Part shown: piece after piece, positions 4,053 to 55,018 of the stretch | How the letters are laid out: every line of letters starts with the position of its first letter | Position numbering within the stretch: position 1 is the first letter of the stretch | Virus record (IMG/VR): IMGVR_UViG_3300045988_163643 | Coordinates: 128,001 to 192,000 of that record | Direction: 5' to 3' (one strand) | Origin: a virus | Length of the DNA: 64,000 bases | Position numbers and translations under genes: made by a program | Notes under the pieces: generated by a model | Databases searched by the model: none | Told to the model about the DNA's origin: nothing | What the model saw: the letters and a program-made list of their open reading frames with translations, nothing else

Positions 4053-4254
4053 TAATTTGCTCCCTATGTAAGTAAATTGCATAGCAAATCCTTTTAATTG
4101 CTGGAAACTCCTAAAGCTCAATTCACTACAACGTAAGGTTAAATCCTAAGCGTGAATGTTACGAAAGTAGAAAAAAGTAATTGAGATTACCCAAGGTTAA
4201 ATCCTAAAGGTGAATAAATGGACAATCAGCAGGTAAGATTTATATTTATTTTAC

Positions 4255-4283
4255 TTTACTTTTAATAATTAAATTTGTATAAT
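4255..4283 (+). promoter_or_regulatory. sigma-A-like promoter for the intron T1 endonuclease ORF (TTTACT-N17-TATAAT)
   Basis: Homologous to the consensus promoters in introns M1 and M4, with 17-nt spacing. Confidence 0.45.
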
Positions 4284-4307
4284 TTAAGTAAATGGAGGTG
4301 AAATTGA

Positions 4308-5249
4308 ATGGCTCAATATAATAAGAAATGGACTAAAGAAAGTATGATTAAATACATCGAAGATAATGGGTATAAATTTATTAGATTTGCTGAAGATTTT
4401 AGAGGATGCGAAACAAGAATCATTATATGGTGTAAAAATTCAAATCACAAACCTTATGAAGTTAGATTTCAACATTTTAAAAATAATAGACGATGTAAAC
4501 AATGTAGAAAAGAAGAAAAGGTAAAATGGACTAAAGAAAATATAATTAAACATGTTGAAAATAATGGATATAAATTTATTAATTTTATTGAATTTGATTA
4601 TTCTAAATCAATAATTGAAATTTGGTGTGGAAATCCTAATCACAAACATAAAATTTCTACATTTAACGATTTTCATCAAAATGGAAGATGTAGAGAATGT
4701 TCTAATGAAAATAAAATTGTATGGACTGAAGAATCTATAATAGACTATATAAAGAAAAATAATTATGAGTTTATAGAATTTATAAATTATAAAGGATATT
4801 TAAGCAGAATAAAAATAAGATGTAATAAACATAATTCTTATGAAGTTGATTTTGGAAATTTTAAAAATGGATTTAGATGCCCATATTGTAATATGGAAAA
4901 CATTGAATCAAAAGGTGAAAAAGAAGTTGAAAGAATATTAAATAAATTTCATATAGATTATAAAAAACAATATTCTTTTGAAGATTGTAAATATAAAAAA
5001 TATTTGCCATTTGATTTTTATTTACCTCAATATAATACATTGATTGAATATGATGGAGAATATCATTTTCAAATAATAGAACATTTTGGTGGATTTAATA
5101 AATTTGTTAACACAAAAATAAGAGATACTATTAAGAATATTTATTGTAAGAATAATAATATAAAACTTATAAGAATTCCTTATTGGGAATTTAATAATAT
5201 AGAAAATATATTAAACAAAGAGTTAAAAGTAAAAAATAAATATGAATAA
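4308..5249 (+). CDS. intron-encoded putative homing endonuclease: 3 zinc-ribbon modules + Vsr/DUF559-like PD-(D/E)XK nuclease domain
   Basis: RBS GGAGGTGA. Three repeats of the form ...WC-x4-H-x12-15-RC-x2-C. The C-terminus has FDFYLP..IEYDGEYH..LIRIPYWE. The stop overlaps the conserved core GAAUAAACUUCAACGAC. Confidence 0.7.
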   Translation: MAQYNKKWTKESMIKYIEDNGYKFIRFAEDFRGCETRIIIWCKNSNHKPYEVRFQHFKNNRRCKQCRKEEKVKWTKENIIKHVENNGYKFINFIEFDYSKSIIEIWCGNPNHKHKISTFNDFHQNGRCRECSNENKIVWTEESIIDYIKKNNYEFIEFINYKGYLSRIKIRCNKHNSYEVDFGNFKNGFRCPYCNMENIESKGEKEVERILNKFHIDYKKQYSFEDCKYKKYLPFDFYLPQYNTLIEYDGEYHFQIIEHFGGFNKFVNTKIRDTIKNIYCKNNNIKLIRIPYWEFNNIENILNKELKVKNKYE

Positions 5250-5418
5250 ACTTCAACGACTATTCCGTAAGGAAGTAAAGTCACAAGCTATCGGTGGAAG
5301 AAATGGAGGATACCTAGAAATAGGTAGTGATATAGTCTGTTCTCATGTGAAAGCATGAGCAGTTTATATTGAATGAGTATAAACGATGTATGTGTAGCGA
5401 ACATATATGAACACAAAG

Positions 5419-5566
5419 ATAACTATATATCATTCTCAAGTGGTAGAACAGGAACATTGACAATGAATTGTCAAGTAATGGACGATGACTTCTTATGTAT
5501 GATGCTTGGTGCTACTAAAGGTACAGATGGTAAAATATCTGTAACATCTTCAGTTCCAAATCAAAG
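5419..5566 (+). CDS. major tail protein, exon 2 of 3
   Basis: This is the only open frame in the segment. It joins exon 1 as GGA G|AT (..KKG-D-NYISF..). The alternative 3' end is 5572. Confidence 0.5.
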
Positions 5567-5983
5567 TAACATATTATAAATATAATATAAAGCTTCGTAT
5601 ATACAGAAATGTGTATAGGACACAACTTTAATTGCAGGTAATCCCTAAAGCCTTACACCAAAACGGAAGGTGAAAACCTAAACGGCAATGGTACGAAAGT
5701 AGAAAAAACGTAAGGATGACATATGGTTAAATCCTAAGTGTTATAAATGATAATTTATATTATTATTTAAAATGGGTGTTCATGCAGGTAAGATTCTAAG
5801 TGATAATTTATCATATGAATAAACTTCAACGACTAGATAGGAATATCGTACACTCAAGCGAGTGGAAGTGGGTTGCCCTTAACAGGTAATGCTGAAGGTG
5901 AAGAAATAGTCTACTCTCATGTGAAAGCATGAGCAGTTCATAAGAGAACGTACATAATGTAGCGAATTATGTAGAATATAAGG
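5567..5983 (+). mobile_element. group I intron T2 (ORF-less, td-like family)
   Basis: The core is AAUUGCAGG...CCUUAC/GUAAGG...CAACGACUA...GAAAUAGUC. The terminal GUAGCGA hairpin is followed by GAAUAUAAGG. The 5' boundary is ambiguous (5567 or 5573). Confidence 0.7.
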
Positions 5984-6242
5984 TTATACTGCAGAAGGTA
6001 CTTTTAGAACTACTTCATTAGCTGGAGACCAATACAAAAAAATAAAATTCTATAACTTAAAAGCACAAGTTTCAGCTGACTTAACTTTATCTGCTTCTGA
6101 TGTTTCTGAATTCTCATTAAAATTAGATATAATGGCAGATGATACTGGTAAAATATTAGATATAGAAAACACTGCTGGTGGTATATCTGCTGGATTTAAT
6201 GAACCAGAAGTTGTTTCTATAAAAACTAAAGCTGATAAATAA
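5984..6242 (+). CDS. major tail protein, exon 3 of 3
   Basis: Open frame to TAA 6240-6242. The three exons sum to 552 nt (183 aa). Confidence 0.55.
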
Positions 6243-6262
6243 TTAAATATATACTTGATAAA

Positions 6263-6900: not shown

Positions 6901-6903
6901 GAT

Positions 6904-7973: not shown

Positions 7974-10900
7974 TTGAGTCAATTTGATATAAGAATTGGT
8001 ACGCAACTAGATACTAGTAAAGCGTTACAAGAATTAATGGAATTTGTCAAAAAATATGACAATAAAGAAAAGATAAATATAGACATAGGTCAATCAAAAG
8101 GTGCTAATAATGTAAAGAATACAACTAAAGCTATGAAAGAAATGCAAAAAATAGCTAAGGCATTAGGAAATACAAAGATTGACGTAGGTAGTAACATAGG
8201 TAAAGCAACCAATGAAGCTACTAAATCATTAGAAAATAGCATAGACAAACAAGCAAAATCTATTGCTAAAATAACTAGTGGTGCACAAAGAGATTTAACT
8301 AAAGATGCTCAAAAGGGTATTGAAAATAGTCTTAAAGGTATTACTACAGAAATGAAAAATACCCAAAGAAATGTTGACAAGATGATTGGTACTCTTGAAC
8401 GAGCTAAGAAGGTTGAGTTAATAGACCAAAAAGGTTTAGATGAAGGATTAGCTAAATTAAAAGATATGAAAGCTAACCTTAGAATAGACAATGTTGGTGA
8501 TGTAGAGAAAAAATTAGGCGAAGTAGCAAATGACTATAAAAGATTAATGTCAGATGCAACTAAAGAAGCATTTAATAATGTTGAAGTATCAGGATTATTA
8601 GAGGATTTAAAAGTTGTTAGAGAAGCTATGTCAGCTAAAAACATGGACTTAACTGGTGTTGATACTTTAATTTCTAAAGCTAAACAACTTACTTCTTTAA
8701 GTGTTGACCAAATGTTAAAACAATACAAAGAGTTAAGACAAGTATTTAGTAAAGAATTAAAGATACCATTAGGTTTAAATGGTGTAATGAATGCTGAAAC
8801 TGCAATTAAAAATGTTTTAGATTATAAAAACAAATTAACTGCTAAAATTTCAGTTGAAACAAATTCAGAGCAAGTAGATATTTTAAGAGATAAAATAGTA
8901 AGATGTGATGAAGTTGTTAAACAACTTGAAGGAGACTTAAATTTAGTAGGTAGAAGTACAGCATTAAACTTAATGGAACAATCCAATGAAAGAGAATTAG
9001 ATACATTAAGTGCTAAGTTAAAGAGATGTAAGAATGATTATGCTAACTTAGAAAAAGAAAGACAAAGATTAAATAGAGATAGTAGATACATTGGAACAGA
9101 AGATTTAAGTAATATAGAAAAACAATCATTAGCTATAAAGAAAGCTCTTGATAGTTTAAATGTTGGAAATTTAAATACAGATAAAATAAATAAAGTTACT
9201 GGCGATATAAATAATTTAAGAAAAACAATAGAATTAACTGGTAATTCAGCTAAAAAATTAGATATAGAAGCGACAGTTAAAGTAGATATGAAAACTGCTC
9301 AAGACCAATTAAATGGTATGTATTCTGCTTTAATAAAATCTAATAAATCCACTGTAATGGTTAAAAAATATAAAGATGAATTAGAAGGATTGTTTGATTT
9401 ATCTAAGGCTAATCCAGGTATAGCATTAGACAAAATAAGTGGTTTTATAGAAAAAGTAAATAAAGAAGCAAGTAATAAAGGTTTAGGCAAAATAACTGGT
9501 GGATTAGACCAATATAAACAATATTTAAAAGATTATGAAACATTAGTTAAAAAAGCTAGTGGCACTACAGATATTGGTTTTGCAAAAGCTTACAAATCAG
9601 AAGTTACACAAATAGAAAAGGCATTAGACCAATTAGAAAGTGGATTTAACCAAACTCAAAAATCTATGGCTAAAGCCTTGAGATTAGAATCACTTAATAA
9701 GAACACTCAAGAGTTTACTAATCAAGTTGAAAAATCTATTAAGAAAACTCAAGAATATAAAAAAGAGTTACAAACTCTTAATAAAGATGTAAATTTTGAT
9801 GGTCTTACTTCTAAATTAGGTCAAAAAGTCAAAGAAGAATTTGACGGAATGATTAATAAAACTAATCAATTAGAAAAAAGACTTAATAATATGTTGTCAT
9901 CTGGTAATGTAAATACTACTGAATTATCTAAATTAAAATCAGAACTTGAAAGTACTTTTTCTGGACTTTCTAAACTTAAAGATACTAGTATAAAAATTAA
10001 AACTGATGAAACTATATCAGGACTTAATAAAATCAAAAAAGATTTAGAATCATTAGGTCAAGATACTAGTCAAATAGAAAGAGTTATTAATGCATTAAAA
10101 GAACTTAAAGCTAATTTCAATGGTGGTACAGCAGGTTATAAAGAATTAGCTAATGGAATAAAGGCTATTGGAAAAGATAATAACTTAGAAAAACTAAATA
10201 GTTCTTTAGAAAAATCAACTAAAAAATTTAATAACTTAGCTAAAGTTGTCGGAGAACTAAAAGTTAAAAATATAGGTAATATAGACCAAGGTGCTTTTCA
10301 ATCTTTAGATAGTCAAGTTGCACGAATACAATCTCATATAGAAGGTTTAAATAAAAACGACATATCTTTAATAGATGTTAAAAAAGTTGAAGCAGAAGTA
10401 AATGAATTAAGCAACTGTGTAGAAAAAATGAGTAGTGAATTGACTCAGTATAGCAGATACTTAGAAGAATATAAAAGATTATCTAGTCAAGCAGGTAAAA
10501 CAAACGATGTTAATTTAGCTACAAAATATCAACAAGAAGCAGAAGGTATAAAAGGTGTATTAACTCAATTAGAGAGTGAATTTACACAAGCTCAAAAATC
10601 TATTGCTCAAGGATTAAAAACCGATGCTTTCTCTAATGCTAATGAAAAAATGTCTTCTGAAATTAATAAAACAATTAATACAGTTGATGGTCTTAAAGAA
10701 AAACTTAATACATTAGATAAAGATGTACATTTTGAAAATATGACATCTGAATTAGGTAAAGAATTAAATAGTCAATTTAATACTTTAGCTAACAAAGGTG
10801 AAGAATTAAAAGATAAATTAAGTAAAATATTAGCATCTGATAATGTAGATATTTCTGCTTTAAGTAAAATTAAAAAAGAAATAAATGAGTTTGCAAGTGA

Positions 10901-13089
10901 AGTTAATAATTTAAAAAATTCTGCAATGGATAATGTTATTAGAGAATCTTTTGATAACATTAAAATACCTAATTTAAATAAACAACTAGAAGCAGTTAAA
11001 GATTTAATGTCACTTAAAAATATGGATACTAGTGGTATAGATGCCTTAATAGAAAGAACTAAAAAACTATCAAGCTTAAGCGTAGATAAAATAGGTCAAG
11101 AATTTAAGGAAATACAAAATGCACTTGGTAAAGAAATTAATTTACGTTTAGGTACTAGTGGTATTAAAGATATAGAATCTGCATTAAAAGTCATATTACA
11201 ATATAGAAATGAATTAAAAAATAAAATAGCAATTGAAACAGATTCATCAAAAGTAAAAGACCTTAATAGTCAATTAGAAAAAACTGAAAGCATAATAGAA
11301 AAACTTAAAGGTCAAACTAGTGGTGGACTTGGTGCAAGTTTAATTAGTGATGCCAACAATAATAACTTAAAACAATTAGAAGATACTGCTAATGGATTAA
11401 AGAAAACATTCTCTAATTTGGAAAGTGAAGTAAATAAATTAAACAACGAAGCATTGAATAAGGTTGATATAAGTCAATTAAGAGAAATGAATGAAGTTGT
11501 TAATGATGTAAAGAGAAATTTGGCATCTATCGGAGAAGGAAATGTTAATGTTGATTCAATAAATAAAACAGCACAAGACATAGAAAAATTAAAGAGATTA
11601 ATAGAAAATACTAAAAAAACAATTAGTGATATGAAATTAGAAGTTTCATTTAATATTAAATCAAATGAAGCAGAACAATATTTAGCAGGTTTTGAATCAG
11701 CTTTATTGAGGTTAGGTAAATCAACTAGTGGAATAAATGCTTTAAAGAGTGAATTTGAAAGTATAAAAAATTCAGCTAATGGAAATTTAAGTAGTGCCAT
11801 AAAAATGATTGATGACTTTATTAATAAATTGAAACAAATGGGTAGCAAACAAGGTTTAGGTAATATAAGTGGTACTATGTCTCAGTACAAACAATATACT
11901 AGAGAATTACAACAAGCCATGAGTGGGGCGTTAAAATCTAGTGGTTCTGATACGGCTAAAGGATTCGAACAACAAGCCGAACGAATAAAAAGTGCCATAA
12001 AACGTTTAGTTTCAAGTTTCAAAGAATCACAAAGAGAATCAGCTAATGCTTTTAATGGTAGTACATTTAGTAATTTCTCTTCTAAATATGAAGCTGAAAT
12101 AAACAAAGTTGAAAGAAGTATAAATAAATTTAAATCATCAATGCAAAACTTAGATAAAGCTGTAAACTTCAAAGGTTTTCAAACTGATTTAGGAAGAGGT
12201 TTATCTGAACAATTTGACCAAATAATGGCAAAAGCTGAACAATTAAGAGATAGACTAAAAAGTGCATTATCATCTGGTACTTTTGATATAAGTGAAATAA
12301 ATAAAATAAAAGATGAATTAAAACAAGTTGAGCAAGAGGCAGATTCATTAAAACAAAAATCTATAGTATTAAAATGTGCTGAAAGTATAACAGAATTAGA
12401 AAGACTTAGCAGTAAGATAAAAGATATAGGTGGAGACACATCAAAAATAGAAGAATTAAAAAATAAATTTGTTACACTTGGTACAGGTATAAGAGAAGGT
12501 ACTACTGGAATAGATGATGCAATTTCTAAAATGAAATCTTTATCTTCGGAAGCACAAAGAACTGCTAGTTCTTTTGAATCAACTGCTGGTAAAATAGGTT
12601 CTTTTGGTTCTAAAATACAAGGTTTCTTTAGTTCTATAAAGAATTCATTTAGTACTTTTACTATTGGTAATTTAATGGCTGATGGTATAAGCCGAGCTGT
12701 TTATGAAATAAAAGATACTATAACAGGTTTAGATGAAGCAATGTCTGATTTTAAAAGAGTTGCTCCTGATAACTTTAGTTTAAATACATCTAATTTACAA
12801 AGTGTTGCTAACGAAGCAAGAGAAATAGGTATTAGTGTTGGACAATCAGTAGAAGATGTTATTACTGGAATGAGTACTGCATTACAAGCAGGTGCAGGCG
12901 ATATTAAAACTGCTTCTGAAATAGCAAAAAGTTCTGCAATATTCCAAAATGTTACAGATATGTCAGCAAAAAGTGCTTCAAAAGCTGTTTCTTCAATGAT
13001 AAATCAATATTATGATATGGATTCAGCATTAAATCAAGTTGACCACGGTGTAGGTAAATCCGTAAAAGGATACAACAACTTAACAGAGG
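7974..13089 (+). CDS. tail tape measure protein, exon 1 of 5
   Basis: TTG start lies 7 nt after GGAGGTGA. The sequence is a long coiled-coil-type protein. Its last ~150 aa begin the TP901/PhageMin_Tail-type core (..VANEAREIGISVGQSVEDVITGMSTALQAG..). Confidence 0.8.
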
Positions 13090-13303
13090 TAACATACAGC
13101 CTCCTATATTAAGTAATTAGTATAGAAAATTTCTTTAATTGCTGGAAACTCCTAAAGCCTTACAAACTACAACGTAGAGTTAAAACTCAAGCGTGAATGT
13201 GGCGAAAGCAGAAAAAATTGTAAGGATTACCCAAGGTTAAATCCTAAAGGTGAATGAATGGACAATCAGCAGGTAAGATTCTAAATTAAATTATTTTAAA
13301 TAT

Positions 13304-13332
13304 TTGACTTTTAATAATAAAATGAGTATAAT
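13304..13332 (+). promoter_or_regulatory. near-consensus sigma-A promoter TTGACT-N17-TATAAT inside intron M1
   Basis: Hexamers are at 13304-13309 and 13327-13332, 23 nt upstream of the endonuclease ATG. Confidence 0.6.
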
Positions 13333-13355
13333 ATAAGTAAAGTGAGGTGATTAAA

Positions 13356-14252: not shown

Positions 14253-14431
14253 TTTAACAAGAATAAACTTCAACGACTAGAACGCAAGTTCGTAGGGTGT
14301 AAGCGATTGACACTCGAAATGGGAAACAATCAAAAACGGGTTGATGATATAGTCTGCTCTCATGGGAAACCATGAGCAGTTTTCATATAAAGAAAACGGA
14401 TTAAGTGTAGCGAACTTAATTGAACAAGAGG

Positions 14432-14578
14432 CAATGGACTTGGTCAATTATGCAGGCAATAATTTTGCGATTTCATCTGATGGTGTAACAGAAGCATTAC
14501 AACGTGGTGGTTCTGTATTATCTAACTATGGAGTAGATTTAAAAGATTCTATCGCAATGATAACTGGGGCAAATGAGT
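14432..14578 (+). CDS. tape measure protein, exon 2 of 5
   Basis: Encodes (A)MDLVNYAGNNFAISSDGVTEALQRGGSVLSNYGVDLKDSIAMITGANE, the typical central block of the tape-measure core domain. Confidence 0.75.
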
Positions 14579-23080: not shown

Positions 23081-23102
23081 ATAAGTAAAGCGAGGTGATT
23101 AA

Positions 23103-46563: not shown

Positions 46564-47946
46564 ATGGCTACAGAAGGTAAAAAAATAAGTCAACTAACAG
46601 AAGTGTTAAGTGTTGACAAAGAAAATGACTATATAATTGTACAACGTGGAGCAGATAATAAAAAGTTAAAATTAGCCAATGTAATGACAACAGATAATAT
46701 GGGTGACAATTATGTTGATTTAAAATCATATGAAGATAAAAGTGAATTTAGATTAATTATAAATGATGATGGAAAAGTTCAAGTATTTCCAAAGGAATGT
46801 GTTGAGGGTCATACTTATGCTGAAAATGATAATTTACAAATGCCTTTAAAATTAGCTAGTTATATAGGTAATTCTCAAACTGCATTATCTACTGTTAATA
46901 ATGGAGGTATTGTTATTAATCAAATTTATGGTGGTGGAGATTTAGTACCAACATCAACTTTACAAGCACCTAGCGTTAGTCATAGTTTTGTTGAATTATA
47001 CAATCGTAATGTTGTAGATATTAATTTAAAAGGATTATATTTACATTATAAAGGTAATGATGAAACTGTTTGGAAAACATTAGCGTTAAGAGGACTTTTA
47101 CCAGCACACACTGCTTTTTTAATTAGAGGTAAACAACATGGAGATTTAATGAGTGATTTAGTAAGATGTAAAATATACGATTATGACCAAGAATGGATAG
47201 ATTCTGATAAAAATGAACCTATTGCATTTAGTAGAAATGGTATGTCAATGTTTTTATCAACTAACTCAACTCCGCCTAATGCTAATGAAAACCCTAATAG
47301 ATATCTTATAACAACTGATACTTCAGGTGTATCAACATTATCATATGTCAATGGATATTATGTAGATTTATTAGGTGTGGGTAGTGCTGATGGAACAAAA
47401 AACCCAGTTGCTTATGAAAAATTCTATTGGACTTGTATGGATAAAGATACTGCAATAAGAAGAATAGATTTTTATAATAATAAAAATAACAAATATGATA
47501 CAAAAGCTATAAATTATAAAACTTGTAATATAGAACATTATAGACCAAGAAGTTTAAGAGATGGAATTTGGGATAACTATTGTGATAAAGCAACTATAAA
47601 TGAAAACATACCTAATCTTATAGATATAACTTTTGGTGAACAACCTACAACAAGACTTTTTACATGGCAATCTGTTTTAACAGATAATGGTTGTGTAAAA
47701 CTTAGAAGAATAAAAGATAAAAGTGGAGTAGCAGTAACTGAAAATTGGAAAAAATATGAAAGTGAACGTGAAATAGTTAATAATCATGGTACATTTATGA
47801 CAATACATAGAACTAAAATAACCAATATAACACCTGGTTTATACGAATATCAATGTGGAGAAGAAGGTTATTGGTCAGATGTACAAATGATAGAAATGAG
47901 AGAATATACAGATAGTAGTACTATTAAAATGCTTTGGACTACGGAT
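46564..47946 (+). CDS. LTD + metallophosphoesterase protein, exon 1 of 4
   Basis: Lamin-tail-like VELYNRNVVDINLKGLYLHY. The exon ends ..KMLWTTD (phosphoesterase motif I Asp) directly before an in-frame UAA that opens the intron. Confidence 0.7.
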
Positions 47947-48270
47947 TAAATATTAGTCCCTATGTAAAGTGATTTATATAGCAAACCTCTTGAATTGCTG
48001 GGAAACCCTTAGAGCCTTAATACCACAATATAAGAGAAATCATTATATGAAGGTTTGAAAAGTTTAAGGATTGGGTAATCAGCAGGTAAGATTCTAAGTT
48101 GTATAAACAATATGAATAAACTTCAACGAACAAGTATCCTAGTAGTCTAGGTAGTGGGAGGGGTCTCGAAAGAGATTGTGATATGCTCTACTCTCATGTG
48201 AAAGCATGAGCAGTTTTCTTTGAGTAAGAAAACGGGTAGAATAGTAACGATATTCTATTGAATATAAAGG
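47947..48270 (+). mobile_element. group I intron Met-1 (ORF-less; variant P7)
   Basis: P1 is GGAU|UAAAUAUUAGUCC with a canonical U at -1. The core is GAAUUGCUGG... The P7 strands are changed to GAACA / UGCUC. The GUAACGA hairpin is followed by GAAUAUAAAGG. Confidence 0.7.
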
Positions 48271-48394
48271 CAACAAGGTTTCACTCAACCTGAGTATGAA
48301 GCATGGAGAACTTGTGTTAAAGCTATGCAAACTAGAACTGATTTTTATAATAATTATGGCTTACCTGTATTTGATTTTCATTTGAACACTGGAG
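48271..48394 (+). CDS. metallophosphoesterase, exon 2 of 4
   Basis: Encodes QQGFTQPEYEAWRTCVKAMQTRTDFYNNYGLPVFDFHLNTG(D). Confidence 0.7.
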
Positions 48395-48759
48395 TAACAA
48401 ATTAAGCTCCCTATGTAAATAAATTGCATAGCAAACCCTTTGAATTGCTTGTAATCCCTAAAGTCAACTAAACTACAACGTGATTGGAAACGATGAGCGT
48501 GAATGTGGCGAAAGCAGAAAAAATTAGTTGAATTGTATATGGTTAAATCCTAAGTACTATAAACAATGGGTGTCTAGCAGGTAAGATTCTAAGTTACTAT
48601 AAGTAATATGAATAAACTTCAACGACTATATATACTAGTAGTCTAGTTAGTGGAGGGCATCTCTTTATGGGATGATGATATAGTCTACTCTCATATGAAA
48701 GTATGAGCAGTTCATAAGAGAACGGTATAAAGTATAACGAACTTTATATGAATATTAGG
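48395..48759 (+). mobile_element. group I intron Met-2 (ORF-less)
   Basis: P1 is GGAG(U)AACAAAUUAAGCUCC. P2 is CUAUG..CAUAG. Internal helix is UCAACUAA/UUAGUUGA. P7 is CAACGACUA...GAUAUAGUC. The AUAACGA hairpin is followed by GAAUAUUAGG. Confidence 0.8.
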
Positions 48760-48857
48760 ATATTTCACAAAATGCATCTAATTTATTTGAATGGTTGTAT
48801 TACACTGATTATGGTGAAGAATTTTGTAGAAACATTCCTCACTTAACTGCATGTGGT
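48760..48857 (+). CDS. metallophosphoesterase, exon 3 of 4
   Basis: Encodes (D)ISQNASNLFEWLYYTDYGEEFCRNIPHLTACG, which completes motif II (GD) and starts motif III. Confidence 0.7.
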
Positions 48858-49171
48858 AAATGTTAGCCACCTTTACATAGTGATATGTAATGAAAAACTC
48901 ATTGAATTGCTGGAAAGTCCTAACGTAAAGACGAGGATAATCAGCAGGGAAGTCCCTTTAAAATGGGAAACCTTCAACGACTATCCCTTAGATGTTGAAA
49001 TACATCAATAGGAGTACGGCTCAAGTGATTGGAGTGGGTGAAAATCCCTTAAATGGAAGTGGTGAGCATCTCAATAGAGATGAAGATATAGTCTACTCTC
49101 ATGTGAAAGCATGAGCAGTTTTCATGTAAAGAAAACGGATTAAGTGTAGCGAACTTAATTGAATATAAAGG
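48858..49171 (+). mobile_element. group I intron Met-3 (ORF-less, shortened 5' half)
   Basis: P1 is GUGGU|AAAUGUUAGCCAC. P7 is CAACGACUA...GAUAUAGUC. The GUAGCGA hairpin is followed by GAAUAUAAAGG. A junction shifted by -1 at both ends gives the same protein. Confidence 0.75.
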
Positions 49172-50185
49172 AATAATGACCTCGTTGATAAAAAATATGG
49201 TTTTGCTTATGAACATTATGCTACATATGAAAATGTACCTAAATTAAATGATTATCATAAAGAAGTTCAAGCAACAACAGATTTTCCTATGGTATCTACA
49301 TATTCTTTTGATTTAGGATTTACTCATTTTATATGTATAAATTCAAATCAAGAACAAATGTATAATGATTATGGTATAAATCAAACAGAATTTTTATTAA
49401 AACAAGCTTACTTCCTAGATAGAGATTTATGGAAGGTTAGTAAAAGAACTACAAAACCTAAATGGGTAATTGTATATGCACATTTAAGTCCTTTTACTGT
49501 AACAAGAGCAAAAAGATTACAACATTGGATACCTATACTTGAAAAATATAATGTAGATTTATTCTTATGTGGTCATAACCATACATATTCAAGAAGTATA
49601 CCAATAAAATGTGGATATGAAAAATCTGCATATGCAGATATGATAAATGAAAAAAATTATAATACCTATGTACCAAAAAGTGGTAAAAATTACACTTTAG
49701 TAAATGAAACAAAATTAAGTGGTAGTGAGATAACTAGAAGTGCTAACATATCTCAAGGTGTTTATTATGTGATGTTCCAAGCAGGTGGTGCTAAACAAAG
49801 TGGTAAAGAAAAAGCTATTGATTTAAGTACTATGACATTCTTAAATAGCACTGGTGGAACAGTAACAAGTGGTACTGAATATACTAAACATTTCCATAGT
49901 GGAACAAATAGACCTTGGTGGTATGAATATACTAGCTCTTTACCAGTACAACCTTGTTTTGCAACTTTAGATATTTCACCAACATCAATAAAAATGAGTA
50001 TGAATTATGTTAAAGAAGTAGAAGCTATAGATAAAGAAACTGGCGTAATGACTGTAGATAAATACGACCCAAATAAACATACAATTGTTAACTTTGATAA
50101 TTTAACAATAAATTATTCAGATAGAAATCCAGCTTATAGAACTGGAGTATCTGCTCCTTATTATGACGAGAATAAAAATTATTAA
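49172..50185 (+). CDS. metallophosphoesterase, exon 4 of 4
   Basis: Starts NNDLV (motif III reads G-N-N-D across the junction). Later motifs are VIVYAHLSP (motif IV) and LFLCGHNHTYSRS (GHxH, motif V). Stop is at 50183-50185. Confidence 0.75.
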   Translation, partial: NNDLVDKKYGFAYEHYATYENVPKLNDYHKEVQATTDFPMVSTYSFDLGFTHFICINSNQEQMYNDYGINQTEFLLKQAYFLDRDLWKVSKRTTKPKWVIVYAHLSPFTVTRAKRLQHWIPILEKYNVDLFLCGHNHTYSRSIPIKCGYEKSAYADMINEKNYNTYVPKSGKNYTLVNETKLSGSEITRSANISQGVYYVMFQAGGAKQSGKEKAIDLSTMTFLNSTGGTVTSGTEYTKHFHSGTNRPWWYEYTSSLPVQPCFATLDISPTSIKMSMNYVKEVEAIDKETGVMTVDKYDPNKHTIVNFDNLTINYSDRNPAYRTGVSAPYYDENKNY

Positions 50186-50198: not shown

Positions 50199-52911
50199 AT
50201 GTCTATTAAAAGATGTATTGTTAAAGACGGAAAAGAACAATGGATAGAAGTTGCTGGAGGAAGTAGCACTATAAATACAGGTGAAGCGATAAACGTTAGT
50301 ATAAAAGATAATAACGATTTATTTGAAAGTACAAACGTCGAAGGAGCCTTAAGTGAGTTAGGAACTGATTTGCAAAATGTTAGCAATAAATTAACAAATC
50401 ACGTAAACAATTCTTCTATACATGGTGGAGGTGGAGGTGGTGGTAGTATGCCTACCATCACTTCTGATTTTACTATAAATAAATCAGATGGTATAAGCGA
50501 AATAGAAATACCAATATTTTTTAATTCACCTAACTTAGGTGAAGGTTTAGCTTATATATTAGTTAGTAATGTTGAAGTAGGTACACAAACTGTTCAACAA
50601 GGTAACAATACGATTATAGTTCCTCCTTTGGGAGCTGGTAAAAATATAATTATATCAATATATGTAAAAGATAGAGCAGGTTTAATATCTAACCAAATAA
50701 ACTGGACAGTAACAAGTGGTGGTATAACATTAACAATGCTTACTGACACAAGTGCAGATTATGGTGTTACAAGTAGAATAGTTTTATCATATACAATATC
50801 TTCTATGACTGGTGAAGATATTAAAGTTTATTTTGATGTAGATGGCACAACATATGAAACAAAAGGTACTAATGGATATAACACTTATGAAATTACAGGA
50901 TTAGATATAGGTGTACATACTATAACTTATTGGGCGACATCAGCAGAATATGAAACAAAACATAGTACATTTACACTAATAGTAGTAAGTAAAGACCAAA
51001 TAATATTATCAACTCAATTTGATTCAACAATTGAATATGAAAGTGGTATACCAATTAGTATACCATATAGATTATCAGTAGATAGAGATGATGATTTTAT
51101 TGTAAATTTATATATAAATAATGTTTTAGATAAAACCATAGTAACTAGACCAACTTCATTGTATTGGACTATATCATCATTAGACCCTGGTGATTATACT
51201 TTAAAAATAGAAGCAAAAAATGAATCTTTAGGAATGAATAATCATATAGAATTTGAATGTAAAGTTATTCAAAGTGAATATACTAGAATACAACCAGTAA
51301 TAGATAGTTCTTTAATAGCTTGGTTTGATGCAACAAATAGAACTAACAATGATAGCGATAGGGATGTTTGGACTGATAAAATAAAAGGCAATAAAGGTTA
51401 TCTTTATAATTTTAACTATGGTTCTAATGGATGGTTAAAACAAAGTGGTAAGGAAATTAGTGAACTTGTTATGAATGGTACTGCTTATGTTGAAATAGAC
51501 ATGACACCTTTTGCTGATAACTTTAAAAATGGTGGTGTAATCGAATTAGTATTTAAAACTAGAGATGTTGGTAATAGTAATGCTAGAGTTTTAGATATAA
51601 CAGATACACTATCACCATATAAAGGTGTTTATATTGATACAAGAGAAGCATATTTATCTACTTCATCACAATCTATAAATGGTTCTATAGGTGAAGATGA
51701 ATATATACAAGTGTTATATAATATAGATAGAATTAACAAATATTGTCATATAGTTGTTAATGGAGTAATAATAAAATCTTGTAAATTAGCTGATAGTGGT
51801 AGTGGTACTTCTGCTATATTAGAATCATTAGCTCATTCTAAAAAGATTTATTTAAATTCCCAAAAAGGAACTAATAATTTTGGCTCTTGTGAAATAGCAC
51901 ATTTGAGAATATATGATAGAAACTTTACTTTTGATGAAATATTGCAAAACTTTTTATCAAATTACGATGATTTAAAAGTACAAAAAAGTAAATCGGATTT
52001 TAATAATCCATTAAAGAATATAATGCCTATCATGAATATAACTGCTGACCAAAAACGTTTAGATGATATGACAGATACAAATAGAGTTGAAGTTGCTATG
52101 ACATATACATCTCCTAATGCAGATTTATATGGACAAACTTTAACTAACGCTAGTAACTGTTTAATGTATTGGCAAGGTACATCTTCTATAGCATATAATA
52201 TTAAAAACTTTAATATATTACTTAGAGATGAAAATAGACAACCAATAATGTATAGTCCTTTTAAAAATTGTATACCACAAGATTTATTTTGTCTAAAAGC
52301 AAACTTAATGGAATCTACTAATGCTCATAACGTAGGTATAGCTGAATATGTTCATGATTACTTATATACAACTTTGAATCCTGCACAAAAAATAGATAGT
52401 AGAGCTAGTAGAACAGTACAAGGTTTCCCTATATTACTTTATATAAATGGTGAATTACAAGGTGTATATGACTTCAACTTAGATAGATATTCAACAAAAG
52501 CGTTTGGATATGAATTAGATGAATATAAAGATACTTGTAGAGCATATGAAATTTCAGCAAATACTAATAAAACTGCTGGTGCATTTATTCCTTGGACTAA
52601 GGAAACTGGTGTAGATGAATGGACATGGTATAAAAATGACTTTGTAGGTATATATCCTGAACGTATACAAAATTCAATTAATGATGATTTCTCTGCATTA
52701 AAAACATTAATATCATTTGTGCATGATTCTACTGATGAAGTTTTTACTACAAATTTCGCTACATATTTTGATAAAGAATCAGTAATAAGATATTACATTT
52801 TAGTTCTAGTACTTGGTTTAGTGGATAGTTTAGGAAAAAATATGAAGCTAGTAACATTTGATGGTGTTAAATGGGAAATACAAGTATATGATGCTGATAC
52901 GGCTTTTGGGT
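50199..52911 (+). CDS. LamG + CotH-kinase-like + LRR giant virion protein, exon 1 of 3
   Basis: The N-terminus has a fiber-type ..NVEGALSEL.. motif followed by a Gly7 linker and Ig-like repeats. A LamG-like ..AHLRIYDRNFTFDEI.. follows. The CotH-like block ends ..GKNMKLVTFDGVKWEIQVYDADTAFG(L). Confidence 0.65.
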
Positions 52912-52989
52912 TAATAATAGCTCAAATAAAACCTTTTCTGATATACGGCGAAACTCCTGGAGAGGACAACGCCTTCCAACTATTATTTA

Positions 52990-53018
52990 TTGACAAATTA
53001 TAAAAATATATGTATAAT
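52990..53018 (+). promoter_or_regulatory. perfect consensus sigma-A promoter TTGACA-N17-TATAAT inside intron L0
   Basis: Hexamers are at 52990-52995 and 53013-53018, upstream of the endonuclease RBS. Confidence 0.65.
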
Positions 53019-53054
53019 ATAAATATAAAGAGAATATATATAGGAGGTGATTAT

Positions 53055-53912
53055 GTGTGTAAGAAAGAGAATAGTTTTGCACAATGGTTTATAAATGAAT
53101 TTGGATTAGAAAAATTTAACACTGTCATAAATCATGAAAAAAATAAATCATTAGGCATAGATATTTGGAACGTATCAAAGAGAAGTGGTTGTAAAATTTG
53201 GTTTAAATGTGAAAATAAAGATTATCACGAATATCAACTTACAGCCGATAAATATTTTATTGGTAATAGATGTAAATATTGTGGCAGAACAAAATATGTT
53301 CATCCAAGAGATTCGTTAGGTCAATATATAATTGATAACTTTGGAGAAGATTTTTTAAATAGAATATGGTCAACAAAAAATAAAAAATCGCCTTTTGAAT
53401 ATACTATTGGAACTGAGAAGAAAGTTTGGTTTAATTGTATCAATGGTATTCATGAACCAAAATTAAGACAAATAAAAAATTCTGTTGCTAACGACTTTAA
53501 ATGCCCATTTTGTTTAAAAAATTGCCATATTTCAAAATTAGAAAAGAAAGTGTTTTTATATTTAAAAAGCATTTTTAAAAACATAAATAGAGAAAGCAAT
53601 TGTAATTTAATACCCAAAAATCCTAAAACTAATAAAATAATGCCTTATGATAATGAGATAGTGGACATAAAATTAATAATAGAAGTACATGGAAAACAGC
53701 ATTATGAATTATCAGTAGATACAAGTGCATGGTTACATGGATTATCACCAGAAGAATATCTTCATAAAAGAAAATTGTATGATAGGTATAAAAGAATGTA
53801 CGCAAAGTCCAATGGTTATTATTATTTAGAAATACCTTATTGGGCTGATGATTTAGAGGAAACTTGGAAAATTATGATTGATGATAAAATAAAAGAAATA
53901 TTAAGTCAATAA
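53055..53912 (+). CDS. intron-encoded putative homing endonuclease (2 zinc-ribbon modules + Vsr/DUF559-like nuclease)
   Basis: GTG 53055 lies 7 nt after AGGAGG (the track start 53010 lacks an RBS). Modules are WFKC..H..-RCKYC and WFNC..H..-KCPFC. The C-terminus has ..IIEVHGKQH..YLEIPYW. Confidence 0.65.
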   Translation: MCKKENSFAQWFINEFGLEKFNTVINHEKNKSLGIDIWNVSKRSGCKIWFKCENKDYHEYQLTADKYFIGNRCKYCGRTKYVHPRDSLGQYIIDNFGEDFLNRIWSTKNKKSPFEYTIGTEKKVWFNCINGIHEPKLRQIKNSVANDFKCPFCLKNCHISKLEKKVFLYLKSIFKNINRESNCNLIPKNPKTNKIMPYDNEIVDIKLIIEVHGKQHYELSVDTSAWLHGLSPEEYLHKRKLYDRYKRMYAKSNGYYYLEIPYWADDLEETWKIMIDDKIKEILSQ

Positions 53913-54104
53913 ATAATAGGGGAACAACGACTGAGCGAAAAGGACTTACTATAAAGTAAGTATGCAACAGTCTGAACTCACACTATAACTCAAAATATTA
54001 AGAAATGTGAGAAGGAAAGTCATCAGTAACCAGACTGATTAAAGAAGAACTTTCCTCGCCAACTTAGGTTGGTCGGTAGCCTTTATGGTGAAAGTAACAG
54101 AATG

Positions 54105-54556
54105 TAGATAATACAGGAGCATTGAAATATGATGTAGATATAGAAGTTGACCCTGAACATTTCAATACTGCCGATTCAGTATTATGGACTAGAATTAGAG
54201 AATTATTCTATAACGATATAGTTGCTGAATATAATAATATGAGAAATCAAAACTTAACACCTGAAAAAATATATGAAAGTGTATTTACAAATCAAATAGA
54301 AAAAATACCTGAAAGTCAATATAATCTTAGTACACAAAAGAAATATCTTGATACAGGTGAAAATATTATGATGTCTAATGGTAACAGATATTATAATTTG
54401 AAACGTTGGATAAAAGAAAGATTTATATATTGTGATACTTTATTTGATTACACTCCTACAACTGCTAAGTATGTAACTGTACGTTCAGGAGTAGAAGGTA
54501 AGGCTTATTTGGATATAGAAACTTATTATCCTATGTATATAACTATAGAATGGAGG
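54105..54556 (+). CDS. CotH-like/LRR protein, exon 2 of 3
   Basis: Joins exon 1 as GGG T|TA GAT (..TAFG-L-DNTGALKYDVDIEV..). The alternative 3' end is 54576. Confidence 0.6.
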
Positions 54557-55018
54557 AAACAATATTCCTCGTACATAGAGAAATCTGTGTAGGACACAAC
54601 TTTAATTGCAGGTAATGGGTAAAGCTCTACACCACAATATATCTGAAAAGAATATATGAAGGTACGAAAGTAGAAACAACGTAGAGATTCTCATACGGTT
54701 AAATCCTAAGTGAGAAGTGATTAGATTCACACAATCCCTGTTCATGCAAGGAAGTTCCTAAGTGATAATCTTGTATCATATGGAAAACCTTCAACGACTA
54801 TCCTGGAAAGATAAGTGAAATCCTTATCAATAGGAGTACGGCTCAAGCGATTGGAGTGGGTGAAAATCCCTTAAATGGAAGTGGGTTGCCCTTAACAGGT
54901 AATGCTGAAGGTGAAGAAATAGTCTACTCTCATGTGAAAGCATGAGCAGTTCTTTATTAAATTTTTAACATTTAATAAAGAACGATATGTATGTAGCGAA
55001 TACATATGAATACAAAGG
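54557..55018 (+). mobile_element. group I intron L1 (ORF-less, td-like family, closest to T2)
   Basis: The core is AAUUGCAGG...CUCUAC/GUAGAG...CAACGACUA...GAAAUAGUC. The GUAGCGA hairpin is followed by GAAUACAAAGG. An alternative boundary pair 54577/55017 also preserves the frame. Confidence 0.7.

What the first reader, a model, noticed from the sequence alone, without database searches (positions are those of the whole stretch)
4053..55018. Eleven group I introns packed into four tail-module genes
Four genes are each broken into short open frames separated by 0.3-1.8 kb blocks: the major tail gene (2 blocks), the tape measure gene (4), a phosphoesterase gene (3) and a CotH/LRR gene (2). The blocks share a recognisable T4-td-like ribozyme core. 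(1) Each has a 5' helix in which the last exon nucleotides pair with a downstream guide, and the pairs covary between copies: GGAG(U)/GCUCC, GAGG(U)/GCCUC, GGAU/GUCC, GUGGU/GCCAC, GGG(U)/GCCC, GAGU/GCUC. (2) An internal helix also covaries: CCUUACAA/UUGUAAGG, CUCAAUU/AAUUGAG, CUAACUAA/UUAGUUAG, UCAACUAA/UUAGUUGA, CUCUAC/GUAGAG. (3) The P7 strands CAACGACUA ... GAUAUAGUC match td. (4) A terminal hairpin with an (G/A/U)UA(A/G)CGA loop is followed by 10-11 nt ending in G, comparable to td ..UUAACGA..GAACAUAAUG. Removing the blocks restores continuous, motif-complete proteins. Several exons are micro-exons of 91-148 nt. I do not recall phage structural regions with an intron density of roughly one per 5 kb confined to virion genes.
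Basis: partly seen in the sequence, partly recalled or inferred. Interest (0 to 1): 0.85.

Follow-up and report, generated by a model that had tools for sequence, protein, structure and literature searches.

The report
Eleven self-splicing introns in phage tail genes
Four neighbouring virion genes of an uncultured SPbeta-like gut phage are broken up by eleven mobile group I introns, an unusually dense cluster, and at least four of them appear to splice after a G rather than the near-universal U.

Summary
Eleven + strand blocks interrupt four genes:
- Tail-tube gene: 2 blocks.
- Tape-measure gene: 4 blocks.
- Metallophosphoesterase gene: 3 blocks.
- CotH/LRR gene: 2 blocks.

Removing the blocks gives stop-free reading frames of 183, 4383, 872 and 2142 aa.

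For nine of the eleven, related phage contigs carry an allele that lacks the block exactly at the predicted junction. This shows precise, mobile insertions.

Ten blocks form one Twort/td-like (IA2) family:
- Four reach the Rfam RF00028 gathering score.
- The other six are found at 42-149 bits by a covariance model built only from those four. That model hits nothing else in the window.

The eleventh block (52912-54104) is a compact group I intron without P2. Rfam misses it, but 23 compensatory base pairs, including the P3/P7 pseudoknot, support its fold.

Four introns carry homing-nuclease ORFs. Three of these ORFs sit behind the only perfect TTGAC-N17-TATAAT sites in the window.

First, relatives carry different intron sets at other sites. 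Second, in I1, I3, I8 and I11 (probably also I2, I5 and I6) the last exon base is G paired to C, not the canonical U·G. cDNA is needed to confirm this.

The parts
3908..6242 (+). Tail-tube (major tail, YomU-like) gene. Exons 3908-4052, 5419-5566 (148 nt) and 5984-6242. Spliced product 183 aa.
   Evidence: The spliced ORF has no internal stop. Uninterrupted 183-aa homologues are 84-98% identical in the alignment. The intronless DNA allele is L001 10001-10552.
4053..5418 (+). Intron I1 (1366 nt), Twort-like group I. P1 is GGAG|U..GCUCC, so the last exon base is G. It ends ..CACAAAG (omega G at 5418).
   Evidence: The intronless allele reads GGAGATAAT. CM R1 gives 86.1 bits for 5252-5418. Rfam gives half-matches of 16.2 and 14.8 bits. 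BLAST matches to I7, I8 and I9.
4308..5249 (+). Homing-nuclease ORF of I1 (313 aa) in the P6a loop. Its stop codon lies in the P6 3' strand.
   Evidence: phrog_559, E = 4.5e-64; phrog_9084 'homing endonuclease'; phrog_7140 'intron encoded nuclease'. Pfam CapR domain. An SD sequence GGAGGTG precedes the ATG.
5567..5983 (+). Intron I2 (417 nt, no ORF). P1 is AAG|U..GCUU with a hairpin in the loop.
   Evidence: RF00028 41 bits, E = 1.7e-8 in a local scan. R1 86.7 bits. Absent from L001 and L009, whose allele reads CAAAGTTATAC.
7974..24917 (+). Tape-measure gene. Exons 7974-13089, 14432-14578 (147 nt), 14915-22402, 22750-22840 (91 nt) and 24608-24917. Spliced product 4383 aa.
   Evidence: The spliced ORF has no internal stop. 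Colinear with the tape-measure genes of relatives.
13090..14431 (+). Intron I3 (1342 nt). P1 is GAGG|U..GCCUC, so the last exon base is G.
   Evidence: Absent from L012, whose allele reads ACTGAAGCGATGGAT. R1 91.6 bits. Rfam half-matches of 23.8 and 16.5 bits.
13356..14252 (+). Homing-nuclease ORF of I3. A TTGACT-N17-TATAAT promoter-like site lies at 13304-13332.
   Evidence: phrog_559, E = 1.4e-72. Pfam DUF4379 and CapR zinc-finger domains. Promoter pattern. Start codon and SD.
14579..14914 (+). Intron I4 (336 nt, no ORF). Canonical junction: GAGU|UAAAUAUGGCUC.
   Evidence: RF00028 63.2 bits, above the gathering score, in a local scan. Absent from L036, L037 and L038, whose allele reads AATGAATCTTTACAA.
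22403..22749 (+). Intron I5 (347 nt, no ORF). P1 is GGAG|U..GCUCC.
   Evidence: R1 149.1 bits. 80% identical to I8 over 327 nt, E = 2e-78. Present in all five relatives examined; two of them carry a 1.2-kb insert inside it. Not found by Rfam.
22841..24607 (+). Intron I6 (1767 nt). P1 is GGG|U..GCCC.
   Evidence: Absent from L023-L027, whose allele reads ATGGGTGATTCA. R1 41.6 bits, E = 3.7e-8. Not found by Rfam.
23103..24431 (+). Homing-nuclease ORF of I6 (442 aa). A TTGACT-N17-TATAAT site lies at 23052-23080.
   Evidence: phrog_559, E = 1.8e-89. Pfam CapR and DUF4379. Promoter pattern.
46564..50185 (+). Metallophosphoesterase gene. Exons 46564-47946, 48271-48394 (124 nt), 48760-48857 (98 nt) and 49172-50185. 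Spliced product 872 aa.
   Evidence: The spliced ORF has no internal stop. The spliced segment scores Metallophos 35.4 bits over profile positions 31-191; the last exon alone scores 23.2 bits. I8 splits the GD motif and I9 the GNxD motif.
47947..48270 (+). Intron I7 (324 nt). Canonical junction: GGAU|UAAAUAUUAGUCC.
   Evidence: RF00028 62.5 bits. Absent from L004, L006, L008, L030 and L034, whose allele reads GACCAA.
48395..48759 (+). Intron I8 (365 nt). P1 is GGAG|U..GCUCC, so the last exon base is G.
   Evidence: RF00028 65.1 bits. Absent from L029 and L032, whose allele reads GGAGACATT.
48858..49171 (+). Intron I9 (314 nt). Junction is GUGGU|AAAUGUUAGCCAC. The alternative 48857-49170 gives the same protein.
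   Evidence: RF00028 100.5 bits. Absent from L028, whose allele reads TGTGGTAATAAT.
50199..58282 (+). CotH-kinase / leucine-rich-repeat gene. Exons 50199-52911, 54105-54556 and 55019-58282. Spliced product 2142 aa.
   Evidence: The spliced ORF has no internal stop. The spliced segment scores CotH 68.2 bits over profile positions 5-318 of 322; exon 1 alone scores 52.4 bits over 5-216. Uninterrupted homologues read ..DTAMGLDNTGAL...
52912..54104 (+). Intron I10 (1193 nt). A compact group I intron of a different type, without P2. P1 is UUGGGU|UAAUAAUAGCUCAA, with the U·G pair at the splice site. It ends ..GUAACAGAAUG.
   Evidence: ORF-less 271-nt versions occur in L017 and L018. The fold has P1, P3-P9.2 and the P3/P7 pseudoknot: 99.5% of cells paired, 23 pairs changed on both sides, slid controls 35-45%. 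No Rfam match, even for the ORF-less form.
53055..53912 (+). Homing-nuclease ORF of I10, in the P6a loop. A TTGACA-N17-TATAAT site lies at 52990-53018. The flanks CUAUUAUUUAUUG and CAAUAAAUAAUAG pair around it.
   Evidence: phrog_559, phrog_9084 and phrog_7140. Pfam DUF4379. Promoter pattern. GTG start with SD.
54557..55018 (+). Intron I11 (462 nt, no ORF). P1 is GAGG|AA..UUCCUC, with no U·G pair at all. The last exon base is G.
   Evidence: Absent from L017 and L018, whose allele reads TGGCGTAATCAA. R1 79.5 bits. BLAST to I9, E = 1e-41. Not found by Rfam.

Best explanation
The eleven blocks are group I self-splicing introns.

**The two kinds.** Ten belong to one Twort/td-like (IA2-type) lineage. 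They have P1, P2, an extended P4-P6 domain, P7.1/7.2, P8, P9, P9.1 and P9.2. One (I10) is a compact type without P2.

**How they work.** The introns are transcribed within the late virion genes. Each RNA folds, pairs its internal guide sequence with the last 3-6 exon bases (P1), and is excised by the two guanosine-dependent transesterifications. This rejoins the exons into the tail-tube, tape-measure, phosphoesterase and CotH/LRR messages.

**How they spread.** Four introns carry a nuclease gene of the CapR/DUF4379 zinc-finger type in the P6a loop. Three of these sit behind a promoter-like site of their own, and all four have their own ribosome-binding site. The nuclease presumably cuts intronless alleles during co-infection, so that the intron is copied in (homing). 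This would explain why related phages carry different subsets of the introns at exactly these sites.

**Shown here:**
- The sequences and folds.
- Exact restoration of the reading frames.
- Precise presence/absence polymorphism among relatives.
- Family membership of the ORFs.

**Inferred, not shown:**
- The splicing chemistry.
- Nuclease activity and homing.
- The exact splice junctions in RNA.
For: **Rfam.** RF00028 is at or above its gathering score for I4, I7, I8 and I9. I2 scores 41 bits.

**Own covariance model.** Model R1 was built from the 3' domains of those four introns only. It finds the other six Twort-like introns full-length, ending at or within 1 nt of the predicted last G, at 42-149 bits. 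It has no other hit with E < 0.1 in the window.

**Sequence similarity.** BLAST of I7, I8 and I9 against the window hits only the predicted blocks.

**Covariation.** On 63 distinct copies from the window and relatives, 96.7% of cells are paired, against 28-41% when the partners are slid. 29 of 38 pairs change on both sides. For I10, 79 pairs are 99.5% paired and 23 are compensatory, including pairs in P3 and P7.

**Reading frames.** All four spliced ORFs are stop-free, and the Pfam domains become complete.

**Intronless alleles.** They occur exactly at the junction for:
- I1 and I2
- I3
- I4
- I6
- I7
- I8 and I9
- I11

For I10, uninterrupted CotH homologues exist.

**Intron ORFs.** They match phage homing or intron-encoded nuclease families.

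**Known relatives.** The same model also hits the annotated Tuc2009 capsid-gene group I intron (87.6 bits) and a sequence inside the split endolysin gene of Staphylococcus phage CF9 (86.5 bits).
Against: - No RNA data. Splicing and homing are inferred.
- Rfam fails on I5, I6, I10 and I11 even in local scans.
- The near-universal U·G pair, with U as the last exon base, is missing in I1, I3, I8 and I11, and probably in I2, I5 and I6. For these the exon ends in G paired to C. This is a highly conserved group I feature (PMC2504315, PMC4227781).
- The alignment used was fitted to the model's structure and contains many close relatives, so its numbers lean towards the structure.
- I5 and I10 were not seen absent in any close relative.
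Confidence: 0.93

Rival explanations
1. Some blocks are decayed, non-splicing intron remnants. The interrupted genes would then be pseudogenes of a defective phage, or would be expressed as separate polypeptides.
For: Rfam does not detect I5, I6, I10 or I11. I6 is the weakest match to my own model at 41.6 bits. Several P1 helices lack the canonical U·G splice-site pair.
Against: - All eleven excisions restore the frame with no stop.
- The interrupted genes (tail tube, tape measure) are indispensable.
- The same introns are kept at 90-97% identity in several independent assemblies of 120-205 kb.
- Substitutions between copies are compensatory in the helices.
- The micro-exons of 91-148 nt have no start codons or ribosome-binding sites of their own.
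Confidence: 0.04
2. I10 (52912-54104) is not a group I intron. It would be another kind of intervening element or ribozyme that happens to sit in the CotH gene.
For: RF00028 gives no hit even for the 271-nt ORF-less form. There is no BLAST similarity to the other ten introns. Only two weak matches exist among 50,697 phage records.
Against: - The helices follow the group I order: P1, P3, P4, P5, P6, P7, P3', P8, P7', P9, P9.1, P9.2. The P3/P7 crossing is present, and both P3 and P7 have compensatory changes.
- U·G is at the 5' splice site and G is the last base.
- The J6/7-P7 sequence CAACGACU is shared with the other introns.
- The nuclease ORF is of the same family as in I1, I3 and I6 and lies in the P6a loop.
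- Excision restores the CotH motif DTAFG-LDNTG that uninterrupted homologues have.
Confidence: 0.06
3. The 'G before the splice site' junctions are an artefact of my inference. Under this rival, the introns cut canonically after the U of the U·G pair, and the proteins of this phage simply differ from the intronless alleles at the junction.
For: - In I1, I2, I3, I5, I6 and I8 a U·G pair sits at the top of P1, in a helix of the same build as that of I9 (4 pairs, then U·G, then the loop), where the U is exonic.
- For I2, I5 and I6 the first base of the 3' exon is also U. A cut after U gives the same mRNA if the intron were allowed to end in U.
Against: - With a cut after U and the intron ending at any nearby G, I1 and I3 run into stop codons within a few codons.
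- For I8 no cut after U is in frame unless the intron ends in A, and that would replace the GD-motif aspartate by valine.
- The only in-frame alternatives for I1 and I3 place the 3' splice site upstream of or inside the conserved P9.2 hairpin and insert 9-11 residues.
- I11 has no U anywhere near the junction.
- The P9.2-to-last-G tail is 10-11 nt in all ten introns only with the junctions given here.
- An I6-like intron at another tape-measure site in L023 also follows G unambiguously.
Confidence: 0.1

Closest known systems
Staphylococcus phage Twort introns: orf142 with three group I introns, and the orf142-I2 ribozyme (Landthaler & Shub 1999; Golden et al. 2005). Cited from my own knowledge.
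   Same: - Same intron architecture as I recall it: P2 directly after P1, a P7.1/7.2 insert, and a P9-P9.1-P9.2 tail with a GUAACGA-type loop about 10 nt before the last G.
- Several introns in one phage gene, separated by very short exons.
- Staphylococcus phages dominate the BLAST matches to these cores.
   Different: - Here there are four adjacent virion genes with 2, 4, 3 and 2 introns, eleven in 51 kb.
- The host phage is SPbeta-like, not a herellevirus.
- Several introns here follow G rather than U.
Group I introns in tape-measure genes of Bacillus cereus-group prophages (sites IVS1-3; Tourasse & Kolstø 2008, PMC2504315)
   Same: Multiple group I intron sites in a very long tape-measure gene, with presence or absence varying between strains.
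   Different: - That survey found three sites. Here the window has four, and relatives add at least four more (window-equivalent positions about 14950, 15177, 22062 and 22185).
- That paper stresses insertion after U, which several introns here do not follow.
Lactococcus phage Tuc2009 major-head-protein intron, and the split tail and lysin genes of Staphylococcus Sextaecvirus phages
   Same: - Same intron lineage by my model. The annotated Tuc2009 group I intron scores 87.6 bits. The sequence inside the split CF9 endolysin gene scores 86.5 bits. The split major-tail gene of vB-SscS-F1 scores 35 bits.
- The introns sit in structural or lysis genes and carry nuclease ORFs.
   Different: - One or two introns per gene in those phages.
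- The Tuc2009 junction is compatible with a canonical U before the splice site.
T4 td/nrdB/nrdD introns and the SPbeta bnrdE/bnrdF introns (classical phage group I introns). Cited from my own knowledge.
   Same: Self-splicing group I introns, with or without homing endonuclease genes that have their own expression signals. They are inserted at codons for conserved catalytic residues, as I8 and I9 are in the GD and GNxD motifs.
   Different: - Those introns lie in nucleotide-metabolism genes, one per gene.
- The ones here lie in virion genes, up to four per gene.
- The nuclease family here is CapR/DUF4379 zinc fingers with a C-terminal nuclease domain, not GIY-YIG or H-N-H.
Bastillevirinae intron survey (Weglewska et al. 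2025, PMC11878797)
   Same: Group I introns in herellevirus genes. An extra small exon lies between two introns in one gene, and an internal exon is skipped in another.
   Different: - That survey found 45 introns in 37 genes across a subfamily of 37 species.
- It counts just over 100 phage introns known in all, so eleven in one 51-kb stretch is far denser.

Membership tests
Group I catalytic intron (Rfam RF00028) | Covariance-model score at or above the curated gathering score (50 bits). | tested here: inconclusive
   - Met for I7, I8 and I9 (62.5, 65.1 and 100.5 bits) and for I4 (63.2 bits).
- Below threshold for I2 (41 bits) and for the halves of I1 and I3 (14.8-23.8 bits).
- No hit for I5, I6, I10 or I11.
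- A model built from the four positives recovers the other six Twort-like introns at 42-149 bits.
Group I catalytic intron | P1 helix: an internal guide sequence near the intron 5' end pairs with the last exon bases. | tested here: met
   All eleven introns form P1, with 3-6 exon bases paired. The guide covaries with the exon: CUCC, CCUC, CUU, GCUC, CCC, GUCC, GCCAC, GCUCAA and UUCCUC.
Group I catalytic intron | [quoted passage not shown] This feature is highly conserved: 'virtually all' (PMC2504315) and 'critical and highly conserved' (PMC4227781). | tested here: not met
   - Met for I4, I7, I9 and I10.
- Not met for I1, I3, I8 and I11. Intronless alleles and the reading frame require a G as the last exon base, paired to C.
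- For I2, I5 and I6 the last exon base is G if the intron ends in G.
- All of this is inferred from DNA. No cDNA was available.
Group I catalytic intron | Guanosine as the last intron base (omega G). | tested here: met
   For all eleven introns, a junction compatible with the intronless allele or the frame ends in G. In the ten Twort-like introns this G lies 10-11 nt after P9.2.
Group I catalytic intron | Conserved core: the P4-P6 domain and P3-P7-P8-P9 with the P3/P7 pseudoknot, supported by covariation. | tested here: met
   - I10: all helices including P3 and P7 are 99.5% paired, with 23 compensatory pairs.
- Twort-like family: P7, P7.x, P8, P9, P9.1 and P9.2 are 96.7% paired, against 28-41% in slid controls.
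- P4-P6 folds alike in the nine copies folded.
- P3 of the Twort-like family was seen only in the Rfam alignments and was not counted separately.
Group I catalytic intron | Guanosine-dependent two-step self-splicing. | not testable with these tools
   Needs in-vitro transcription and splicing with GTP and Mg, or RNA-seq of infected cells.
Mobile (homing) group I intron | A homing-endonuclease gene in a peripheral loop, and intron-plus and intron-minus alleles in related genomes. | tested here: met
   - Nuclease ORFs lie in the P6a loop of I1, I3, I6 and I10.
- Nine of the eleven sites have precise intronless alleles.
- ORF-plus and ORF-less forms of the same intron both occur: I9, I5 and I10.
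- Nuclease activity itself was not tested.
Group II intron / intein / IStron (considered) | - Group II: domain V/VI RNA and a reverse-transcriptase ORF.
- Intein: an in-frame protein insert.
- IStron: an IS transposase fused to the intron. | tested here: not met
   - No group II family appears in the Rfam scans of the whole window.
- The blocks have stops in all frames outside the nuclease ORFs.
- The ORFs match homing-nuclease families, not transposases or reverse transcriptases.

The most novel reading that the evidence does not exclude
A lineage of Twort-like group I introns does not need the U·G wobble at the 5' splice site. It would cut after a G (or C) that is Watson-Crick paired to the guide, usually with the U·G pair displaced one position into the intron (G|UAA...). 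The cleavage site might instead be set by its distance from the P1/P2 junction, typically the third or fourth pair. Freed from the need for a U, such introns could colonise many more sites. This may be why this phage clade carries them at such density, with at least 17 insertion sites across the four genes once relatives are included.
Probability: 0.45. Interest if true: 0.8.

Novelty: new member of a known kind. Interest (0 to 1): 0.62.

Why it matters
**Intron density.** Group I introns in phage structural genes are known, usually one to three per gene. A 2025 survey counts just over 100 phage introns in all (PMC11878797). Here one 51-kb stretch of an uncultured human-gut SPbeta-like phage holds eleven, about one per 2 kb of mature coding sequence. 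The tail-tube gene is 76% intron. Close relatives carry different subsets, plus introns at further sites. This clade is therefore a natural system for studying intron gain, loss and homing in real time.

**Annotation.** There is a practical lesson. A standard Rfam scan at the gathering threshold finds only 3 of the 11. Automatic annotation would split four genes into about 20 fragments and would miss a 4383-aa tape-measure protein.

**Splice-site rule.** At least four of the introns follow a G instead of the near-universal U. If cDNA confirms this, it bears on how the 5' splice site is chosen by this class of ribozyme. It also bears on the target range of engineered group I introns used for RNA circularisation and trans-splicing.

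**A missed intron type.** I10 adds a compact 271-nt group I type that the current family model does not see.

Tried and rejected
**Searches that gave little or nothing**
- The whole-window Rfam scan at E <= 10 gave only three group I hits. Local scans were needed and still missed four introns.
- My first spliced tail-tube model kept the GUAGCGA hairpin in the exon and gave 192 aa. Homologues of 183 aa showed it was wrong.
- tblastn of the tail-tube protein against 50,697 phage records found nothing.
- A scan of 185,579 species genomes found no prophage relative, so the host is unknown.
- Literature searches for natural group I introns with a non-U last exon base found nothing relevant. They only returned statements that the U·G pair is nearly universal. 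Absence from an open-access subset is not proof of novelty.
- Annotated Staphylococcus phage records did not give joined CDS coordinates that could serve as validated junctions.

**Models I rejected**
- Canonical cuts after the U of P1 were tried for I1, I3, I5 and I8. They were rejected because they give stop codons or no frame-compatible intron ending in G. For I8 the only in-frame version ends the intron in A and destroys the GD aspartate.
- My first guess for P1 of I6 (GUCGU/GCGAC) is really P2.
- A fixed 4-pair 'ruler' from the P1 base explains most splice sites. It fails for I2 and I6 (3 pairs), I9 (5 pairs) and Tuc2009 (6 pairs), so I offer it only as a lead.

**Technical failures**
- A MAFFT alignment of the whole introns I7, I8 and I9 misaligned the variable P5 and P7.1/7.2 regions. 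I therefore built the covariance model on the 3' domain only.
- The filters-off search with that model failed internally. The default-filter search was used instead.

Full report
**What the window is.** The window has 27% G+C, and all long ORFs are on the + strand. It has no close relative among 50,697 deposited phage genomes; only short intron-like cores match. Gene neighbours in a 195-kb metagenomic contig that shares 97-98% identity carry YonB, YonD, YomV, YomW, YomX, YomU (tube) and YomN domains. The phage is therefore SPbeta-like. Further relatives of 120-205 kb come from IMG/VR and human-gut metagenomes. No prophage relative was found among species-representative genomes, so the host is unknown.

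**Checking the observation.**
- 47937-48210: 62.5 bits.
- 48363-48707: 65.1 bits.
- 48847-49115: 100.5 bits.

Nothing more appears at E <= 10 over the whole window. Local scans add I4 at 63.2 bits, I2 at 41 bits, and weak half-matches around the ORFs of I1 and I3. I5, I6, I10 and I11 stay undetected.

All nine exact copies of CAACGACTA in the window lie in blocks. Each is followed by GATATAGTC or a one-mismatch variant.

**Exact boundaries.** I fixed the junctions from alleles that lack the intron.

| Intron | Relative lacking it | Sequence evidence |
|---|---|---|
| I1, I2 | L001 (uninterrupted tail-tube gene; I2 also absent from L009); 183-aa homologues 84-98% identical in the alignment | GGAGATAAT and CAAAGTTATAC. 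Window has GGAG\|TAATTTGCTCC...CACAAAG\|ATAAC and CAAAG\|TAACAT...ATAAGG\|TTATAC |
| I3 | L012 | ACTGAAGCGATGGAT |
| I4 | L036-L038 | AATGAATCTTTACAA |
| I6 | L023-L027 | ATGGGTGATTCA |
| I7 | L004, L006, L008, L030, L034 | GACCAA |
| I8 | L029, L032 | GGAGACATT |
| I9 | L028 | TGTGGTAATAAT |
| I11 | L017, L018 | TGGCGTAATCAA |

For I10, uninterrupted CotH homologues read ...DTAMGLDNTGAL.... This places the junction at GGGU|UAAUAAUAG...ACAGAAUG|UAGAUAAU. I5 was present in every relative examined; its junction rests on the reading frame and on analogy.

The resulting coordinates are in the parts list. Splicing gives ORFs of 183, 4383, 872 and 2142 aa with no internal stop. The micro-exons are 148, 147, 91, 124 and 98 nt. 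After splicing, the Metallophos and CotH Pfam matches lengthen and strengthen. I8 and I9 sit inside the GD and GNxD metal-binding motifs.

**Are they all group I introns?** Ten blocks are one family. BLAST with the three Rfam-positive introns hits only I1-I9 and I11, and nothing else in the window.

I built a covariance model (R1) from the 3' domains of the four Rfam-positive introns only. It recovers the other six full-length:
- I5: 149 bits.
- I3: 92 bits.
- I2: 87 bits.
- I1: 86 bits.
- I11: 80 bits.
- I6: 42 bits, E = 4e-8.

The next best hit in 64 kb has E = 0.17. Over the window plus 27 loci, R1 finds 79 copies. These include the annotated Tuc2009 capsid-gene intron and a sequence inside the split endolysin gene of Staphylococcus phage CF9.

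On the 63 distinct copies, 96.7% of cells are paired, against 28-41% for slid partners, and 29 of 38 pairs change on both sides. This alignment is fitted to the model and holds many close relatives, so the figures lean towards the structure.

Each intron has the following features:
- P1 followed by P2.
- An identical P9/P9.1/P9.2 layout with a 10-11 nt tail to the last G.

**The eleventh block.** I10 is a different intron. It shares no sequence with the other ten apart from CAACGACU. ORF-less 271-nt copies exist in L017 and L018.

Five variants support the helices P1, P3, P4, P5, P6/P6a, P7, P8, P9, P9.1 and P9.2 in group I order, with the P3/P7 crossing. Of 79 pairs, 99.5% of cells are paired and 23 pairs are compensatory, with slid controls at 35-45%.

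[quoted passage not shown] RF00028 does not detect it, and it has almost no relatives in deposited phages.

**Mobility.**
- I1, I3, I6 and I10 carry ORFs that match the phage families annotated as homing or intron-encoded nuclease (phrog_559, 9084, 7140; E down to 2e-89). They contain CapR/DUF4379 zinc-finger repeats.
- The ORFs lie in the P6a loop.
- The only three perfect TTGAC-N17-TATAAT sites in the window, on either strand, lie just upstream of the ORFs of I3, I6 and I10. Each of the four ORFs has its own Shine-Dalgarno sequence.
- Relatives show ORF-plus and ORF-less versions of the same intron: I9, I5 and I10.
- Relatives also carry introns at sites that are empty in the window. One is in the phosphoesterase GHNH motif at window position 49574/5. 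Four are in the tape-measure gene at about 14950, 15177, 22062 and 22185. There is probably another in the tail-tube gene, and more lie upstream of the window start.

**The unexpected part: the last exon base.** Group I introns are said to follow a U that forms a U·G pair with the guide. [quoted passage not shown]

Here I4, I7, I9 and I10 obey the rule. I1, I3, I8 and I11 cannot. The intronless alleles, the reading frame and, for I8, the catalytic aspartate of the GD motif all require the exon to end in G. In I1, I3 and I8 the U of the apparent U·G pair is the first intron base (G|UAA...). I11 has no U·G pair in P1 at all.

Canonical cuts give stop codons, or no frame-compatible intron ending in G.

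I2, I5 and I6 are formally ambiguous, because the 3' exon also begins with U. They follow G if the intron ends in G, which the constant 10-11 nt tail supports. An I6-like intron at another tape-measure site in L023 also follows G unambiguously.

In most copies the cut lies after the third or fourth pair from the P1/P2 junction. This suggests a distance rule, but there are exceptions. All of this is inference from DNA, and cDNA is needed.

**Verdict.** The kind of element is known: mobile group I introns in phage genes. What stands out:
- The density, eleven in 51 kb.
- The polymorphism among relatives.
- The failure of routine Rfam annotation on 8 of 11 in a whole-window scan.
- A compact second intron type.
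- The apparent non-U splice sites.

Noticed in passing
window 7364-7972: A free-standing GIY-YIG/NUMOD3 homing-endonuclease gene (202 aa) is inserted exactly at the start of the tape-measure gene. Relatives lack it.
- It has taken over the original ribosome-binding site and GTG start codon of the tape-measure gene.
- The tape-measure gene now starts at TTG 7974, behind a new GGAGGTG inside the end of the nuclease ORF.
   Followed up: partly
window 7974-24917 (spliced): The spliced tape-measure protein is 4383 aa. At about 0.15 nm per residue (a rule of thumb from my own knowledge) this predicts a tail of roughly 650 nm, which would need on the order of a thousand tube subunits. The tube gene itself is 76% intron.
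   Followed up: no
L012 17017-17425 and 17652-18819 (window-equivalent about 14950 and 15177): Relatives carry a third intron family in the tape-measure gene.
- Both copies follow a U and end ...GCUCCACGAUAACAAA(A)U(U/C)G.
- They are unrelated in sequence to both intron types of the window.
   Followed up: partly
L006 3404-4731; also L005, L007, L008, L030, L032 (window-equivalent 49574/5): Relatives have a further intron of 371-1347 nt in the GHNH motif of the phosphoesterase gene. Its P1 is GGU|CA..UGACC, so the splice-site U pairs with A, not G. The window is intronless at this site.
   Followed up: partly
L023 3866-5426; L025 2765-4156: An intron closely related to I6 (same guide GCCC, same 5' 250 nt) sits at a different tape-measure site in relatives, window-equivalent 22185. 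The last exon base there is G, where the intronless window allele has A. This looks like ectopic transposition with adaptation of the exon. A further intron lies at about 22062.
   Followed up: partly
L020 2973-4975: One relative's copy of I10 is about 2 kb long. It carries a second ORF inserted in the P9.1 region, in addition to the P6a nuclease ORF.
   Followed up: no
L001 3532-3718; L009 696-882 and 4303-4452; L010 830-1068 and 4486-4635: Model R1 finds Twort-like intron 3' domains in relatives just upstream of the region that corresponds to the window start. The intron-rich zone therefore probably extends into the head and connector genes, outside this window.
   Followed up: no
L024 6499-7189 and L025 (window-equivalent 24994-25000); L017 9366-10245 (window-equivalent 58948-58976): Relatives have inserts of about 690 nt and about 880 nt between genes, at sites where the window has none. 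They are probably further free-standing mobile genes.
   Followed up: no
window 58884-58922: A weak sub-threshold Rfam match to a Staphylococcus cis-regulatory RNA (TEG147, 29 bits, E = 0.12) lies just after the ORF ending at 58867. It is probably just a terminator-like hairpin.
   Followed up: no
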